Shown: positions 7,598 to 54,088 of the stretch, piece by piece
Layout of the letters: every line of letters begins with the position of its first letter
Position numbering within the stretch: position 1 is the first letter of the stretch
From: Candidatus Marinacidobacterales bacterium
GTDB taxonomy: Bacteria > Acidobacteriota > Vicinamibacteria > Marinacidobacterales > SMYC01
Length of the DNA stretch: 64,000 nt
NCBI GenBank assembly: GCA_965237955.1
Contig: OZ250169.1
Span: forward strand, 1,088,001 to 1,152,000
Reading direction: 5' to 3'
The notes under the pieces: generated by a model
Database searches by the model: none
What the model was told of the DNA's origin: nothing
The model's input: the letters and a program-made list of their open reading frames with translations, nothing else
Position numbers and translations under genes: made by a program

Positions 7598-7675
7598 CGA
7601 CGGCACGGGGCTGGGAGGGTGCCTTTTGAGAGCGTTCGACGGCACGGGGCTGGGAGGGTGCCTTTTGAGAGCGTT
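7598..7675 (+). repeat. Exact 39-bp tandem duplication containing a terminator-like GGCAC..GTGCC-TTTT hairpin
   Basis: CGACGGCACGGGGCTGGGAGGGTGCCTTTTGAGAGCGTT x2, just after the porin stop codon. Confidence 0.9.
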
Positions 7676-43324: not shown

Positions 43325-43327
43325 TCG

Positions 43328-43595
43328 CGTCCTGTGCCAAAACTCGGCCCTTTTGAAATAGACGATAAATCAACAGCTTAGAGTTTGTGTTTGCGACCGT
43401 GCCAAGGGCCGTAGGCTCTACAATCGTCTTGGGCGGACGGGTCGTCACCATGCAGACGACCACCTGGTCGAGAGCGAATATCCAAGCGTGTTCCTGAAGC
43501 TGTGTTTCCACACTACGCCGGTCGAGCCCACCGAGGGGCTACCGTCGCCGACGACAATCTATGCCGCACGGTAGTAGTAGTTGAGAATGCCTCCC
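43328..43595 (-). mobile_element. Family-A right-end remnant (copy-1-like variant)
   Basis: TIR, 3' region and last codons GGILNYYYRAA*; cut by copy 4. Confidence 0.85.
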
Positions 43596-45023
43596 CGTCC
43601 TGTGCCAAAACTCGGCTCTTTTGAAATAGGCCATCAATCAGCAACTTAGTGTCTGTGTTTGCGACCGGGCCAAGGGCCGTGGGCTTTACAATCGTCTTGG
43701 GCGGGCGGGTCGTCACCATGCAGATGACCACCTAGTCGAGAGCGAATATCGAAGCGTGTTCCTGAAGCGGTTTCCACGCTACGCCGGTCGAGCCCGCCGA
43801 GGGGCTACCGTCGCCGGCGACCATCTACGCGGCACGGCAGTAGTAGTTGAGAATGCCCACAAGTCGCTCTCGCGACACGATGGGGCCAGCGTCATTCGCG
43901 CTTGCCGGCAGAGGTGTGAGGAGCTCGTTGCCGAGACCTTGGTGGTTCCGTTCTGTGTGATAGTGCACTACGTATTCGGTTACCGCTGTGCGCAGGTGTC
44001 GCTCACTGAGAGGTACGAAGCGGTCGAGACACTCTCGACGTATGGAGAGAACGAATCTTTCCGCATATGCGTTCAGATTCGGACTATTAGCGGGAAGGCG
44101 AAGGGGCTTCACGCCTGAATCTCTCAACAGCCCACGTACCGCCTCGGTGAATAGCGGGTCCCGGTCGTGGATGAGGTATCGCTTGCCAAGGAGGAAACCA
44201 TCCCACATGTCAGTGAGGTTTCTTGCCACCTGCTTCATCCACTCCCCGTTGGGGTCCGACGTTATCCCACCGATGCACACGCAGCGAGTGGCGATATCGA
44301 TGACAAACAGGACATGGTAGCGGACGAGCCCGAACGGGTTCACCACCTCGACGGTGAACAGGTCTGTCGCAGCGATGGCACCCCAATGAGCCTTGATGAA
44401 GGTGCTCCACGACATGCTCCTGCCCCGCTCCGGCGCAGGAGCGATACCGTGCTCGGCGAGGATACTCTTGATAGTGTTGCGTCCGAGTTCATGTCCTAGG
44501 TTCTTGAGTGCGCCTCGCAGGCGCGTATATCCCCACGTCGGGTTCTCCCGCGCCACGCGCACAATGAGCTCACGGATGTCCTTCGCCGTCGGAGGTCGGC
44601 CTGGACTCCGGTTCTTGCTGCCATCGTACTTGGCTGCGATGAGGTGGCGGTACCAGCGCAGAAGCGTAGCGGGTGTGGCAACGGACGCAATCTGGGCCAG
44701 CGCCTCGCGGCCCAAAGCCTGGGCCTTGACCGCGAGCCTGCGCCGGTCGTCGTCCGAGAGACTGAGACGCTTGCCCCGAAGCCCGGCTCGGAGCACACGG
44801 TTCTCCTCTTGCAGGTAGTCGATCACATCCTGCTGCTGGCGGTTGACCCAGCCAGCTAGAACGAGCAGTAGGAATTGCACGTGGTACGTCATCATGGACC
44901 TGAAGATAACACCCTCGGGCCAGACGATTGTAAAGCCTACGGCCCTTGGTCCGGTCGCAAACACAGACACTGAGCTGCTGATTTATGGCCTATTTCAAAA
45001 GGGCCGAGTTTTGGCACAGGACG
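43596..45023 (-). mobile_element. Family-A element, copy 4 (intact)
   Basis: Both TIRs present; uninterrupted transposase. Confidence 0.9.
43825..44895 (-). CDS. Integrase-core DDE transposase, 356 aa
   Basis: Same length and motifs as 23221-24291. Confidence 0.9.
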
Positions 45024-45237
45024 GGGAAGCGCGTGGCTCAGAAACAAGTGATCGGCTATGTGGGCTCCACCGGCTTGGCAACGGGTCCACATCTGGATTT
45101 CCGACTCATTCGCCATGGAAAGCCGGTCAATCCGTTGAAGCAGATCTATCCTCCCGGTCCACCTGTCGCCGTTGAGCACATGGACGCCTATCTCGAGAGA
45201 GTGAAAGAGCTCGCGGCAAGAATGTCATCGCCGAGCG
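45024..45237 (+). pseudogene. M23 peptidase C-terminal fragment
   Basis: [32 protein letters not shown]. Confidence 0.85.
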
Positions 45238-45468
45238 CGTCGTGTCCAAAAATACAAACGAACTCAAGACCAGCTCGCCGGGACGTTTCGGAATAGACGT
45301 ATCTACGCTTGATTGGCCAATGGGAGCTAGAATCCTCGGCGTCGCGTCCTGTGCCAAAACTCGGCCTTTTGAAACAGACCATAATATCAGCAGCTTAGTG
45401 TCTGTGTTTGCGACCGGGTCAAGAGCCGTGCTTCGGCTACCCTGTGCCTTCTATTTATTCATCCGCAC
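45238..45468. mobile_element. Stack of solo ends: family B (45238), family A (45345), family C (45443)
   Basis: Each matches an end found elsewhere in the window; all face the same way. Confidence 0.85.
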
Positions 45469-45741
45469 GGGTGCTTCCGCCATTAAGTGTTGGTAGCTGC
45501 CGCTTAACCCGCTCACGTGCTAGAGTTTGAGCCTGACTTCGAGAGACGCAGTCCTTTCGGCGATGCCGGCTGGGCTGACCACGCGGTGCCTGATGTTCAG
45601 GGACATCGTTTATGGCGTTCGCCGGCAAAGGCAGGCCAACTGACACTAGCATTCAACCGCGGCGTAGCAACATATCTGGACTCCTCTAGTCAAGCCCCTT
45701 TCTTAATAAATCTTCCATCGAAGCTGCGCATCCATCGCGTC

Positions 45742-45952
45742 GTGACGAGTGGGTCAGACTGCAAACGTATCTTCGGCCTCAGTGAGGAGCGTCTTGGGTG
45801 CTCCGGGCCATGATGGAAAATCCGCGCGCGAGGAGCCAATCACTTTGAACGACCTCTTAGGGCCAGTGTTGCTATCGGCTTGACCCCGCGCCGGTCCGAC
45901 CGGTACGCCATCAGTTGGATGGGTATCGTCGCAGCCTCTTTTGGAAGGGAAA
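45742..45952 (-). ncRNA. Putative bridge/seekRNA, duplicate copy (approximate limits)
   Basis: Identical to 46080-46290. Confidence 0.65.
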
Positions 45953-46079
45953 AAGGAAAACACGAAAGTGGAGCCTCTAAGTCTAAGCGGCCATCGGCGA
46001 CTGGAATTCATATCTGGACTCCTCTAGTCAAGCCCCTTTCTTAATAAATCTTCCATCGAAGCTGCGCATCCATCGCGTC

Positions 46080-46290
46080 GTGACGAGTGGGTCAGACTGC
46101 AAACGTATCTTCGGCCTCAGTGAGGAGCGTCTTGGGTGCTCCGGGCCATGATGGAAAATCCGCGCGCGAGGAGCCAATCACTTTGAACGACCTCTTAGGG
46201 CCAGTGTTGCTATCGGCTTGACCCCGCGCCGGTCCGACCGGTACGCCATCAGTTGGATGGGTATCGTCGCAGCCTCTTTTGGAAGGGAAA
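46080..46290 (-). ncRNA. Putative bridge/seekRNA (approximate limits)
   Basis: Minus strand carries TAGCAACACT and AAGTG (match target), and TTCCATCA and AGATA (match element ends). Confidence 0.75.
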
Positions 46291-46320
46291 AAGGAAAACA
46301 CGAAAGTGGAGCCTCTAAGT

Positions 46321-47352
46321 CTAAGCGGCCATCGGCGACTGGAATTCACTCTCGCGGGTGGAGACGGCCCAGACGATCCGGGCGAGTTTGTTGGCGACAG
46401 CAATCACGGCCTTGTTGTGTCCCCGCGAGCGGTGGACCTTCCGAGCCCAGGCGCGGAGCTTGTCGGGCGGGCTCTTACTGACGTTCGCCGCGCGGAGCAC
46501 GGCGCGCCCGCCCTGGGTGAGGAGCATACGGAGGTAGGAGTCGCCACGCTTGGTGATGCGTCCGAGGCGGCGAATGTCGCCACTGGAGTTTTCCTTGGGA
46601 ACTAGGCCGAGGTAGCTCGAGAAGCGGCGCCCCGATGGGAAGCGGCGAAGATCGCCGACGAAGCCCACGATGGCGGTCGCGGTCAGAAGTCCGATGCCGG
46701 GAATGGCGAGAAGTCGTTGGACTTCAGGAAGCTGCTTGGTGAGCGCCTTGAGCTCGTGCTCGATGCCAGCGCACTTGTCCTTGAGTTCTCGAATCTCGGA
46801 GCAGGCATCACGGAGATGCGAACGGAGCACGTCGGGCAAATCAGAATCAGCGTCTTCGACGAGTTCGAAGAGGGCGGGCACGACGAAGTGAGCGCCCTTT
46901 GGGATGATGAATCCGAGTTCGCGCAGGATCCCGCGTACGGCATTGATGCGTGCGGTCCGTGTGGAGAGCCATCCTGAGCGCAGGCGATGGAGCGCGGCGA
47001 GGCTGTGCTGGTGCACGGACTTAATGGGCACGGGAAGAATCTCCTCGTTCCTGTAGGCCTCGAGCAACGCTTTGGCGTCGGCGCGGTCGTTCTTGCTCCC
47101 GCGTCGATAGGGCCTCACGAGGTGAGGTGGGAGCAGGACGACGTCGTGTCCCAACCTTCGGAACGTCCTTGCCCAGAAGTGAGCAGAGCCGCAGGCTTCG
47201 AGAAGCACGGTGGCAGCGCTCTGTTTGGCAAAAAACGACACCAACTTGGGTCGACTCACACGGAGTTGCTTGGACACCTTCCCCGCTTCTCCCGAGATGG
47301 CAATCTCGAAGACGTTCTTTGCAAGATCCACAGCGATCGTCGTATCTTTCAT
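46321..47352 (-). CDS. IS110/IS1111 DEDD recombinase
   Basis: IAVDLAKNVFE, LEACG, KNDRADA, IPGIG, YLGLVPKENSSG, ITKRGDSYLR, ANKLARI; RBS AGGAGG. Confidence 0.95.
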   Translation of the reverse strand: MKDTTIAVDLAKNVFEIAISGEAGKVSKQLRVSRPKLVSFFAKQSAATVLLEACGSAHFWARTFRRLGHDVVLLPPHLVRPYRRGSKNDRADAKALLEAYRNEEILPVPIKSVHQHSLAALHRLRSGWLSTRTARINAVRGILRELGFIIPKGAHFVVPALFELVEDADSDLPDVLRSHLRDACSEIRELKDKCAGIEHELKALTKQLPEVQRLLAIPGIGLLTATAIVGFVGDLRRFPSGRRFSSYLGLVPKENSSGDIRRLGRITKRGDSYLRMLLTQGGRAVLRAANVSKSPPDKLRAWARKVHRSRGHNKAVIAVANKLARIVWAVSTRESEFQSPMAA

Positions 47353-47530
47353 TCGGACTCCTCCTTTTCGATGCGTATTCGACTGACTTTGGCACATCGA
47401 TGCCGTCTATGTCAGCGGAGGAGTCCATTCCATCACTTGATTGTGAAAGCACCCGTTCTCGCATATGCTGGTACTTCCCTGCAATTCCGTAGAGTCGGTG
47501 AGAATGCAGGGACACGCTCCCGACACGGAG

Positions 47531-51372: not shown

Positions 51373-52131
51373 TCATGCATCGGCGTTGTCAAATGCCTTT
51401 GGCGCAGCCTTGGTCTTTCTCAGAGAAGCTCCTTTGAGAGTGATGCGGTGCGCGCTGTGGAGAATGCGATCGCAGATAGCGTCTGCCTGGTTTGGGTCGC
51501 CAATCGCTTCGTGCCACTGCTTGAGCGGAATCTGGGTCGCGATGAGTGTGGAGCCACGCTCGGCGCGGTCTTCGATGACCTCCATTAGATCCCGTCTCTC
51601 CGATTCTTTCAGCGGGTGAAGCAGCCAATCATCGATAGCCAGTAAGTCCAGCTTGGCGAGTTTCGTCAAAAGCCGGGCGTAGGAACCATCACCACGAGCG
51701 ACCGCGAGCTCGTGGAGCAAGCGCGGTGCTCGCACGTAGCATCCGGTGAAGCCGCGACGACAGGCCCGCTCCACGAAGGCGCAAGCCAAGAACGATTTGC
51801 CAATCCCCGTCGGGCCGGTGATGAGCAGGTTATGGCGCTCACCGACAAAGCGGCAGTTGCCCAGGCTCAAGATCTGTTCGCGGTTTAAGCCTCGAGGCGC
51901 TTGGAAGTTCACGTTCTCCAAACATGCCGGATAGCGGAGCTTTGCCGCTCGCAGTCGTCGAGAAAGCTTACGCTGTTCGCGGGCGGTCCACTCGGCATCG
52001 ACCAGGAGTCCCACACGTTCCTCGAAGCTCAGCTCCTTGTATTCGCTCGAGCTCAACTGGGTTTCGAACGCGGACACCAAGCCGAACAACTTCATGGCGT
52101 TCATCTTTTCTATCGTTTCGGGTGTCAGCAT
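51373..52131 (-). CDS. istB: IS21 helper ATPase IstB
   Basis: ITGPTGIGKS, LLAIDDW, ATQIP..W, ADAICDRILH. Confidence 0.95.
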   Translation of the reverse strand: MLTPETIEKMNAMKLFGLVSAFETQLSSSEYKELSFEERVGLLVDAEWTAREQRKLSRRLRAAKLRYPACLENVNFQAPRGLNREQILSLGNCRFVGERHNLLITGPTGIGKSFLACAFVERACRRGFTGCYVRAPRLLHELAVARGDGSYARLLTKLAKLDLLAIDDWLLHPLKESERRDLMEVIEDRAERGSTLIATQIPLKQWHEAIGDPNQADAICDRILHSAHRITLKGASLRKTKAAPKAFDNADA

Positions 52132-53681
52132 CGGGACTCTCCTCCTTCGTAGTGATCCGCGCCTCGGATGTTCTCGTGCTCCTCTCGCGGTTTCGCTTCG
52201 GCGTCCGATTCGAGCACCACACGATCCAGACCAGCCGAGAGAATGTTTTTCACCGTGCGATAGCTGTAAGAGCTCAAAGCTTCCGCTCGTGCGCAAGCGG
52301 CCTCGAGACGCTCACTGCCCCAGCGGCTGCCTAGTCGCATGACTCCCAGGCAAGAGCGAAATCCCTGCTCCGGGTGAGGCCGACTCTCTAGAATCCCCGC
52401 AACCAGCCTTCCCGTGGCGCGACCTGACTGCTCCGCCCAGTGGAGCAGCCGCGACGGCGTCCACTCCAGGTGCTCCCGATGCGAACGTGGCATATGCTCC
52501 GGGTTCGTGGAGTAGTGCCCCTTTCCTTTCTTGCGGGGATGCGACGCGACGCGCTTTCCCTTGAACAGGACCTCCACCACCGAGGCAGTCACCCGTGCCT
52601 CGACTTTCTCGTGAATGAGCTGATAGGGAACGCTGTACAAGTTGTTCTCCACCTCCACGTGGTAGTCGATGTTCACTCTGCACCGCTTCCACGTCGATAA
52701 CTCGTAGCTCTCCTGCGGTAGCGGTTTCAGTACGGGCCGGTCTAGCCTTTCGTACAACTCCCGCCGACTCACACCGAGCTTCTGCATCGGACGCGCATTC
52801 AGGACCTCTAACTTCTCCCAGATGGCTTCGTTCAGTTCCGCCAGGCTGAAGAACGTGCGATGACGAAGCACCGCCAGGATCCAGCGCTGCGCCACCTGCA
52901 CTGCCGACTCCACCTTCGCTTTGTCTTTCGGCTTGAACACCCGAGCCGGGACCACAACCGCACCGTAATGCGTCGCCAGCTCTTCGTACGTCCGGTTGAT
53001 CCCTGGCTCGTAACGGTCCACCAAATCCACGCCGCTCTTCAAGTTGTCCGGAACCCAGATCTCCGTACTGCCACCGAAGTAATCCGACATCCCCTTATGG
53101 GCCTTCGCCCACGATTCCAGCGACTGGTTCAGTGTCGCTTCGACGTAGGTGTAACTGCTCGCGCCCAACGTCCCGACGAACAGCTCCATTTCGACGAGCT
53201 CTCCCGTTTTCGGATCGACGATGTGAGGCTTCTTCCCCGAAAAATCGACGAATGTCTTCTCGCCTGCTCGATGCCGTTGACGCATCGTCGGGTTCAGCTT
53301 CTTCTTCCACTGACCGTACAGCTCGCAATAACGGCTGTAGCCGTACGCTCCCGGCTTATTCTCCGCGTACTCCACCCACAGCTGCAGCAACGTCAGCTCT
53401 CGGTGACGCCTCAGCTCCTCGTGGATGTGGGCATAGTCCAGACCCGGCCGTGCGCCAGACGAGCCCGGCGGCGGAAACAGCCCTGCCTCCAGCTCCCCGC
53501 CGCTCAGCTCCTCCGGGAGCGGCCAGCTCAGACCACCCTTCTTCGCCTTGGCCAGGTACTCACTCACCGTTCCAACCGCCACGCGAAGTGCCTTTGCGAT
53601 CATGCGGTGAGTAAAACCCAGCTCGTACTTTAACCTTAGAACCTCTCGTATTTTTCTCATCGATAACCTCTTAGCTGCCAT
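52125..53681 (-). CDS. istA: IS21 transposase IstA
   Basis: MRKIREVLRL, FVDFSG, VPDNLKSGV, PKDKAKVE, YSVP, HENIRG. Confidence 0.95.
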   Translation of the reverse strand: MAAKRLSMRKIREVLRLKYELGFTHRMIAKALRVAVGTVSEYLAKAKKGGLSWPLPEELSGGELEAGLFPPPGSSGARPGLDYAHIHEELRRHRELTLLQLWVEYAENKPGAYGYSRYCELYGQWKKKLNPTMRQRHRAGEKTFVDFSGKKPHIVDPKTGELVEMELFVGTLGASSYTYVEATLNQSLESWAKAHKGMSDYFGGSTEIWVPDNLKSGVDLVDRYEPGINRTYEELATHYGAVVVPARVFKPKDKAKVESAVQVAQRWILAVLRHRTFFSLAELNEAIWEKLEVLNARPMQKLGVSRRELYERLDRPVLKPLPQESYELSTWKRCRVNIDYHVEVENNLYSVPYQLIHEKVEARVTASVVEVLFKGKRVASHPRKKGKGHYSTNPEHMPRSHREHLEWTPSRLLHWAEQSGRATGRLVAGILESRPHPEQGFRSCLGVMRLGSRWGSERLEAACARAEALSSYSYRTVKNILSAGLDRVVLESDAEAKPREEHENIRGADHYEGGESRC

Positions 53682-54088
53682 TTCCTAGATCGTCCTCCTT
53701 CCGGGTACGACCTAGAGTTGCCTTGAAACGTGCTATCGATGAGCATTCGCGATGCCGGAACCGGCGTTCACGTTGCCTGGAATCCGTGTTCACCTTCCCC
53801 GGAATCGATGTTCACGATCCCCGGAATCCGTGTTCACGATGCTTTGGAATGGATGTTCACCTTCGGCTGGAATCTGCGTTCACGATGCCCCGGAATACGC
53901 ATCCCGGAAAACGAGCCGCGAGCCCGCCGCACGAGTCGTTCTTCGCAAGGCCCATTACTACACTCTTGGTTCACTCACCCAACGTGCCCCTAAGTCGTTG
54001 GATCACGACGAAGGGACTTCAGATCACTTCTGTCGGTTGCCGAGCCTCTGCACTTCGACTAGCATTCTTATTTTCATCCTGGTTTTGC

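What the first reader, a model, noticed from the sequence alone, without database searches (positions are those of the whole stretch)
45673..46348. Tandem duplication of the whole guide-RNA end, joined exactly at a CA core in the element's own gene
Seen: two identical 338-bp units. The junction GGAATT-CA-TATCTGG places the precise right end after a CA that natively continues CACT, the same CACT as in the real target. Inference: this looks like recombinase-made self-insertion at a partly matching site rather than slippage. It yields an element with two right ends and two guide cassettes, one free to diverge.
Basis: partly seen in the sequence, partly recalled or inferred. Interest (0 to 1): 0.75.

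Follow-up and report, generated by a model that had tools for sequence, protein, structure and literature searches.

The report
Jumping gene with doubled guide end
An RNA-guided jumping gene carries an exact second copy of its last 338 bases, predicted guide RNA included, likely because its own enzyme joined the element's right end to a wrong spot inside the element; such slips recur in this genome and its relatives and were reported in bulk in 2026, so this is a clean example and not a new system.

Summary
Confirmed. An IS1111-group (IS110 family) element carries two identical 338-bp right-end units, each with the whole predicted bridge RNA. The join is not a one-off. 4 of 17 complete copies in this genome have extra right ends, and the same 1765-bp double-ended element sits at a second, different target. 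Three genomes give 12 distinct joins. All start exactly at the right end, after an internal C-N dinucleotide taken from the internal partner; no left end is joined internally. This fits a one-sided, one-strand transfer of the right end by the element's recombinase, resolved in place, better than slippage or full self-insertion. The internal site matches the target's left arm at 0 of 6 bases. No guide divergence was seen between duplicated cassettes. Public contigs did not show the junction, so read-level proof is missing. Tandem non-coding units at IS110 loci and half-match or one-end-first chemistry are in 2025-2026 preprints, and this scan found such duplications before on other DNA. New details: right-donor polarity, units as short as 19 bp, and a two-guide copy at two sites.

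The parts
45671..47435 (-). Whole double-ended IS1111-group element (1765 bp counting both CA dinucleotides)
   Evidence: identical copy at G000:C1:7863073-7864837
45673..46010 (-). Outer (extra) right-end unit, 338 bp: last transposase codons and stop, non-coding region with predicted bridge RNA, right end
46011..46348 (-). Inner (native) right-end unit, identical to the outer
46009..46010 (+). New junction: internal GGAATT-CA joined to the terminal TATCTGG of the right end
46347..46348 (+). Native internal site (T-CA-CT); apart from the guide itself, the only TCACT in the element; resembles the left-end junction CCAT-CA-CTT
46321..47352 (-). IS110-family DEDD recombinase gene, 343 aa, intact (an upstream ATG at 47397 gives 358 aa)
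   Evidence: (NF033542, 308.7 bits, cut-off 140)
45983..46010 (-). Duplicated transposase tail (EFQSPMAA-stop) with no start
46204..46212 (-). Predicted left target guide UAGCAACAC (outer copy 45866-45874)
   Evidence: differs together with the target in the 91% sister copy
46177..46184 (-). Predicted right target guide plus handshake AAAGUG-AU (outer copy 45839-45846)
46148..46156 (-). Predicted left donor guide UUCCAUCAU (outer copy 45810-45818)
46102..46110 (-). Predicted right donor guide plus handshake AGAUA-CG-UU (outer copy 45764-45772)
46015..46024 (+). Right sub-terminal inverted repeat TGGACTCCTC (outer copy 45677-45686)
47418..47427 (-). Left sub-terminal inverted repeat; the left end runs to 47435
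45470..45672 (+). Host: body of a 221-bp non-coding element with IS1-like terminal repeats; the IS sits in its far terminal repeat, whose remainder is 47436-47453
   Evidence: (I5)

Best explanation
An IS1111-group insertion sequence carries two identical copies of its 338-bp right end, guide-RNA region included, likely because its own recombinase transferred only the right end, on one strand, to a CA inside the element, and replication or junction repair likely fixed the result in place. Shown: the anatomy, the exact end, the recurrence and the one-sidedness. Inferred steps: (1) The window's + strand is the strand cut first, since the predicted guides read left-target, right-target, left-donor, right-donor on it; the tnp-distal end is then the right-donor (RD) end. 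(2) The enzyme nicks just 5' of TATC at an existing right junction and nicks an internal site just 3' of a C-N dinucleotide, then joins the internal 3'-OH to the right end, so the dinucleotide at the join comes from the internal partner. (3) The second, left-end transfer does not happen; the two partners are probably sister chromatids or neighbouring copies, and resolution leaves a tandem unit with the gene intact. (4) The double-ended element then probably moved as one unit through its outer end, giving the identical copy 1.4 Mb away (about 50%, against gene conversion 25% and independent repeat at a favoured site 25%). The extra cassette is most likely a neutral by-product.
For: Recurrence: 4 of 17 complete copies in G000 have extra right ends, with units of 338 (twice), 475 and 396/292/396 bp; 4 of 9 G012 loci with a right end and 1 close pair among 32 right ends in G033 show the same. 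All 12 distinct joins start at the terminal TATC; the 4 non-CA joins (CG, CG, CT, CC) all keep the internal partner's dinucleotide, as expected from a top-strand cut 3' of the core with a 5'-phosphoserine on RD (PMC11208158, passages). In 63 right-left end pairs of the wider family the left-end side is CA in 58, while the right-end side varies (CG 28, CA 13, GG 8, others 14), so the same polarity holds for normal insertions. No left-end-to-internal join and no reciprocal deletion at 76 left-target-like sites. Units of 19, 29 and 46 bp are too short for a cis circle or for homologous re-entry (inference). The 396/292/396 array is explained by one further round that used the outer end (inference). 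Published chemistry: right-junction transfer comes first, about 10-fold faster, top strand only (bioRxiv 10.1101/2025.10.25.684509, sections 7-8); half-matches suffice (bioRxiv 10.64898/2026.08.31.748434, parts 1, 3, 4 of 6). Only 1 of 43 empty target-like repeats left in G000 is a perfect match, which may favour misfires (inference).
Against: No read or contig crossed the junction in 7 runs. How the internal site is chosen is unclear: this site matches neither left arm (0/6 and 1/6), and over 12 sites left-donor likeness is only weakly enriched (p 0.008-0.024 uncorrected, six models tried; left-target p 0.06-0.07). At least 6 duplications or rearrangements in the same non-coding regions of G012 and G033 do not start at the right end, so ordinary slippage also acts there. 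In more distant relatives 2 of 3 clear joins lack the C (GG, GC). The bulk study reports tandem units with almost only LD matches, the opposite label (10.64898/2026.08.14.744561, section 8 and discussion passages); I could not see how it orients IS1111-type elements. The chemistry cited was measured on IS621 and CazIS110, not on this element. No RNA, circle or activity was shown here.
Confidence: 0.65

Rival explanations
1. Same enzyme-made join, but formed in cis as a partial circle of the 338-bp end, which then re-entered an intact copy by homologous recombination.
For: Partial circles that reuse the RD terminus and recurrent internal end points are reported (10.64898/2026.08.14.744561, section 9). 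It gives the same junction and no left-end join; 338 bp is enough homology; one circle species could explain two identical loci.
Against: It cannot easily give the 19-, 29- and 46-bp units (inference). No free-standing right-end unit flanked by foreign DNA on both sides with such a join appeared in the genome listing.
Confidence: 0.15
2. Full self-insertion: a whole circle inserted at the CA in the gene, and the doubled left part later collapsed by homologous recombination.
For: It gives the same final structure. The site shares CA-CT with the target and 6 of 8 bases with the right target guide plus handshake. IS110 seems to lack target immunity. One join (position 398) has a near-match to the left target arm.
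Against: 0 left-end-to-internal joins among 26, 36 and 25 left ends despite 12 distinct events. Left target match 0/6 here. All 12 sites lie within 795 bp of the right end (P about 0.001 if uniform), although longer units may be lost faster.
Confidence: 0.1
3. Assembly artefact at a high-copy repeat.
For: The junction was not seen in contigs of 7 public runs, four of them from one sample; one of these carries this locus's left-end junction with its flank, and three show contigs of the 91% sister copy.
Against: The single-contig 8.1-Mb assembly resolves 17 complete copies. The same join occurs at two loci with different flanks. The same rule holds in three separately assembled genomes and in metagenome contigs. 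Four joins have no CA overlap to mislead an assembler. Those contigs drop rare variants; a 2-copy link beside 15-20-copy sequence may be pruned (inference).
Confidence: 0.05
4. Replication slippage or microhomology-mediated duplication with no role for the recombinase.
For: Duplications not tied to the end do occur in these regions (at least 6). A 2-bp overlap exists here.
Against: 12 distinct joins hit one exact base, the element's terminus, with overlaps of only 1-2 bases.
Confidence: 0.03

Closest known systems
Tandem non-coding repeat units and partial circles at IS110 loci (Hu et al., bioRxiv 10.64898/2026.08.14.744561; author name from an earlier scan note; sections 8 and 9 and passages read)
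   Same: Tandem non-coding units beside an intact transposase (n = 468 there), bounded on one side by a true donor end and attributed to half-match recombination resolved in place.
   Different: There the units keep almost only LD matches; here all 12 keep the end that the guide order marks as RD. Their screen needed units of 50 bp or more; here units go down to 19 bp. Figures and supplements were not seen and may already cover IS1111-type cases.
Half-match recombination of IS621 (bioRxiv 10.64898/2026.08.31.748434) and RD-first direct transfer of CazIS110-1 (bioRxiv 10.1101/2025.10.25.684509)
   Same: One-strand joins at partly matching sites, with the RD-containing junction made first.
   Different: Those are in vitro or E. 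coli assays on IS621 and CazIS110-1; this is a natural genomic footprint in an IS1111-group element.
ISPa25 family (IS1111 group; best named plasmid hit, 46.3% over the full protein)
   Same: DEDD recombinase, 3' non-coding region, sub-terminal repeats; many relatives sit after TAAC/CAAC motifs that recall attC sites (recalled, not tested).
   Different: This element targets the terminal repeat of an IS1-like element; under 50% identity.
IS4321/IS5075 (IS1111 family; seen only as a reference title in PMC11208160)
   Same: An IS1111 element aimed at another mobile element's terminal inverted repeat.
   Different: Their target is the Tn21-family repeat; here it is an IS1-like repeat.
ISPpu9/MITEPpu9 (PMC12288879, passages)
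   Same: An element with two right-type ends that circularises through either; tandem small-RNA modules occur.
   Different: Its extra module has both end boxes and a different small RNA; here the extra unit is an exact copy of the bridge-RNA end with no left end.

Membership tests
IS110 family | DEDD RuvC-like domain plus Tnp domain in one protein | tested here: met
   PF01548 and PF02371 above cut-off; NF033542 308.7 bits vs 140; similarity to IS621 and ISCro4 chains
IS1111 group | Long non-coding region downstream of tnp, short left end | tested here: met
   310 bp downstream (46011-46320) against 83 bp upstream of the ATG at 47352; criterion from PMC11208160
IS1111 group | Sub-terminal inverted repeats | tested here: met
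   10-bp TGGACTCCTC, 4 nt from the right terminus and 6 nt before the terminal CA at the left
IS1111 group | Specific target and orientation, no true target duplication | tested here: met
   The same site and orientation at nearly all copies; empty site seen in two runs (joint 45670 to 47434); the left-side CA belongs to the element in 58 of 63 pairs
IS1111 group | RNA segments matching both strands of target and donor, top-strand complement first | tested here: met
   Four segments read in the expected order (order from PMC11187229); the target guides differ together with the target in the 91% sister copy. A sequence match only
IS1111 group | RNA is expressed and bound by the recombinase | not testable with these tools
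   No raw RNA reads were offered
IS1111 group | Circular intermediate with abutted ends | tested here: inconclusive
   No left-right junction in the genome or in 237 scanned loci; only contigs were available
Half-match tandem expansion of IS110 loci | Unit bounded by one authentic donor end only | tested here: met
   12 of 12 joins keep the exact right end; the other side is internal
Half-match tandem expansion of IS110 loci | The retained end is LD | tested here: inconclusive
   By guide order it is RD here; the preprint's labelling rule for IS1111-type elements was not found in the passages read
Nested self-insertion (IS within IS) | Both new junctions present (internal-to-right end and left end-to-internal) | tested here: not met
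   No left-end-to-internal join
IS1 family (host of the target) | IS1-type transposase between the terminal repeats | tested here: inconclusive
   The best NCBIfam match of the 355-aa protein is IS1 (E 5e-22) but at 78.8 bits, below the cut-off of 100; hence 'IS1-like'

The most novel reading that the evidence does not exclude
The double-ended element is a mobile, two-guide form, and right-end duplication is how IS1111 elements retarget: the spare bridge RNA mutates to a new target while the original keeps the element moving. In addition, IS1111-type tandem units form by right-donor-first transfer, opposite to the reported LD bias.
Probability: 0.12. Interest if true: 0.62.

Novelty: new member of a known kind. 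Interest (0 to 1): 0.3.

Why it matters
It gives a natural genomic record of the one-strand, one-end-first chemistry recently proposed for bridge recombinases, this time in the IS1111 group, and shows the misfire is common (4 of 17 copies in one genome). For editors built on these enzymes, it predicts small tandem duplications at the right-donor end of an inserted cargo as a by-product worth looking for. If the two-guide element proves mobile, it is a ready substrate for asking how new target guides evolve. No such divergence was seen here.

Tried and rejected
Reads: contigs of 7 runs (X1-X7) never crossed the junction. All are simplified contigs that drop rare variants, so this is uninformative. 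The exact junction (1 mismatch allowed) was found in 0 of 400 other genomes of the phylum, which were drawn evenly and mostly not shown to carry the element. A new promoter at the junction: none by consensus scan (0 found). Guide divergence: the four guide segments were unchanged in all duplicated cassettes where they could be read; the left-target pattern mis-hit in three loci. The outer unit at C1:3027298 has one substitution and a 2-nt insertion in the hairpin between the target guides; the predicted fold weakens (-13.8 to -11.6 kcal/mol), which looks like decay or a sequencing error rather than retargeting. Passenger transport or segmental duplication as the cause of the second copy was rejected: one copy sits in a 221-bp non-coding element, the other in a full IS1-like element, with different flanks. 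Covariation of the right-junction dinucleotide with the right donor guide across 152 distinct ends was too noisy to use (many had no motif found). Dropped before counting: L145 (single right end, ambiguous) and L198 (repeats joins already counted in G012); the 4 complex or repeated rows were reduced to distinct sites. The left-end list includes one doubtful 3-mismatch hit. I first suspected the target was an integron attC site; the paired terminal repeats showed it is an IS end.

Full report
Observation. The two 338-bp units are real in the assembly and identical. They form the right end of an insertion sequence whose 343-aa gene (46321-47352, minus strand) is an IS110-family recombinase (PF01548, PF02371; NF033542 308.7 bits); the best named plasmid match is the ISPa25 family at 46%. 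The long non-coding region lies downstream of the gene and there are 10-bp sub-terminal repeats, which places it in the IS1111 group (criteria from PMC11208160, passages). The outer unit holds the last eight codons and stop, the whole non-coding region and a perfect right end; the gene is intact.

Guides and target. Four segments of the non-coding region read, in RNA order, as left target (UAGCAACAC), right target (AAAGUG, then AU), left donor (UUCCAUCAU) and right donor (AGAUA-CG, then UU). The flanking AU and UU would pair with the AT before the left-end CA and the AA before the target CA, as the handshake bases do in IS621 (PMC11208158 and PMC13626964, passages). The order agrees with that described for IS1111 seekRNAs (PMC11187229, passages). 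A 91% identical sister copy at C1:5245812 has different target guides and a correspondingly different flank. On this reading the window's + strand is the first-cut strand and the duplicated end is the right-donor end. All of this is prediction from sequence; no RNA was seen. The target is the terminal repeat of an IS1-like element: 196 repeat matches in the genome, 22 of them directly followed by this IS's left end. Here the host is a 221-bp non-coding derivative. The full-length host protein matches IS1 best but below the curated cut-off. An earlier scan note had named the IS1 target; I checked it to this extent.

Recurrence. The genome is one 8.1-Mb contig. Of 17 complete copies, 13 have one right end and 4 have more: the window's copy; a 100% identical 1765-bp copy at C1:7863073-7864837, inserted in a full IS1-like element with different flanks; a 475-bp unit; and an array of 396, 292 and 396 bp. 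Of 60 related genomes searched, 11 had a match. In 40 regions fetched from five of them, 4 of 9 G012 loci with a right end carried extra right ends (up to seven), G033 had one among 32 right ends, and 6 right ends from G008, G015 and G018 had none. That makes 12 distinct joins.

The rule. Every one of the 12 joins begins at the terminal TATC. The dinucleotide before it starts with C in 12 of 12 and is CA in 8 (P about 3e-7 and 1e-8); the four others keep the internal site's own CG, CT or CC. Normal insertions of the wider family show the same polarity: CA at the left-end side in 58 of 63 pairs, a variable dinucleotide at the right-end side (5 of the 63 are inner self-joined ends and 1 is a doubtful left end). 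So the 'CA core' is better seen as the left partner's last two bases, matching a cut 3' of the core on one strand. Against a simple picture: at least six rearrangements in the same regions of G012 and G033 do not start at the end, and two of the three distant joins lack the C.

Site choice. The window's internal site matches the left target arm at 0 of 6 and the left donor arm at 1 of 6. It is, though, the only TCACT in the element besides the guide, and it ties for the best match (6 of 8) to the left-end junction among the CA sites outside the guide (69 CA sites in all). Over 12 sites, left-donor likeness is weakly enriched (p 0.008-0.024, uncorrected, six models), left-target borderline (0.06-0.07) and right-target not at all (0.47). 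All sites lie within 795 bp of the right end.

Mechanism. I commit to a one-sided, one-strand transfer of the right end to an internal C-N site, resolved in place between sister or neighbouring copies (0.65). This is the first step of the direct-transfer route of CazIS110-1, where the right junction moves first, on the top strand only and about ten times faster than the left (bioRxiv 10.1101/2025.10.25.684509, sections 7 and 8), with the relaxed matching shown for IS621 (bioRxiv 10.64898/2026.08.31.748434, parts 1, 3 and 4 of 6). Units of 19-46 bp argue against a circle in cis. Rivals: partial circle with homologous re-entry 0.15; full self-insertion with collapse 0.10; assembly error 0.05; slippage 0.03. 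For the second identical copy I put transposition as a unit at about 50%, gene conversion and repeated formation at 25% each; sequence cannot separate them.

Limits. Contigs of seven public runs did not cross the junction; they drop rare variants and no raw reads were offered. No divergence of guides between duplicated cassettes was found; the one changed outer cassette looks decayed.

Comparison and novelty. Tandem non-coding units beside IS110 transposases (n = 468), with one-sided donor matches, are described in bioRxiv 10.64898/2026.08.14.744561 (sections 8 and 9 whole, other passages; figures and supplements not seen, and they may bear on the LD/RD contrast). ISPpu9 already shows alternative right ends (PMC12288879, passages). 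Earlier scan notes describe the same kind of duplication on other DNA; one of them, 565 bp long, matches the unit length I found in G012. Three literature searches listed nothing on right-donor polarity of IS1111 tandem ends or on a double-ended copy at two sites; I saw only listings for the papers not named above, and many journals are not covered. Verdict: a real, well-resolved natural example of a known misfire, with a few testable new details. Interest 0.3.

Noticed in passing
G000 whole genome: Target saturation: of 43 empty repeats resembling the target, only 1 is a perfect TAGCAA-CACTT; 20 read TACCAA. Mismatched repeats seem to escape the element.
   Followed up: partly
G000:C1:5245812-5247238 (L018): A 91% identical sister element with changed left and right target guides and a different flank: natural retargeting in the same genome.
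   Followed up: partly
L051:3554-6318 (G012): An array of seven right ends (units of 19, 29, 454, 29, 382 and 428 bp) in front of one full element, at an off-repeat site that matches the predicted guides fully (GATAGCAA-CA-CTTT).
   Followed up: partly
Loci L051-L327: Across this family the dinucleotide at the left-end junction is almost always CA (58 of 63) while that at the right-end junction varies, so the 'core' need not match between donor and target.
   Followed up: partly
G000:C1:796558-799913: One copy is split in its non-coding region by a 1.9-kb insertion with a CTAAG duplication.
   Followed up: no
G033 copies (L042, L050, L064, L068): Several G033 copies carry a short duplication about 15-34 bp inside the right end that does not start at the terminus.
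   Followed up: no
window 43325-45430: A 268-bp near-tandem pair (91-92%) and several ends of an rve-type element around a 381-aa integrase-core gene (43825-44970, minus strand); these ends also truncate several copies of the IS1111 element elsewhere.
   Followed up: no
window 7598-7675 and 53746-53889: A perfect 39-bp tandem pair, and a 22-bp array of 6.5 copies just beyond the 518-aa transposase-like ORF at 52125-53681.
   Followed up: no
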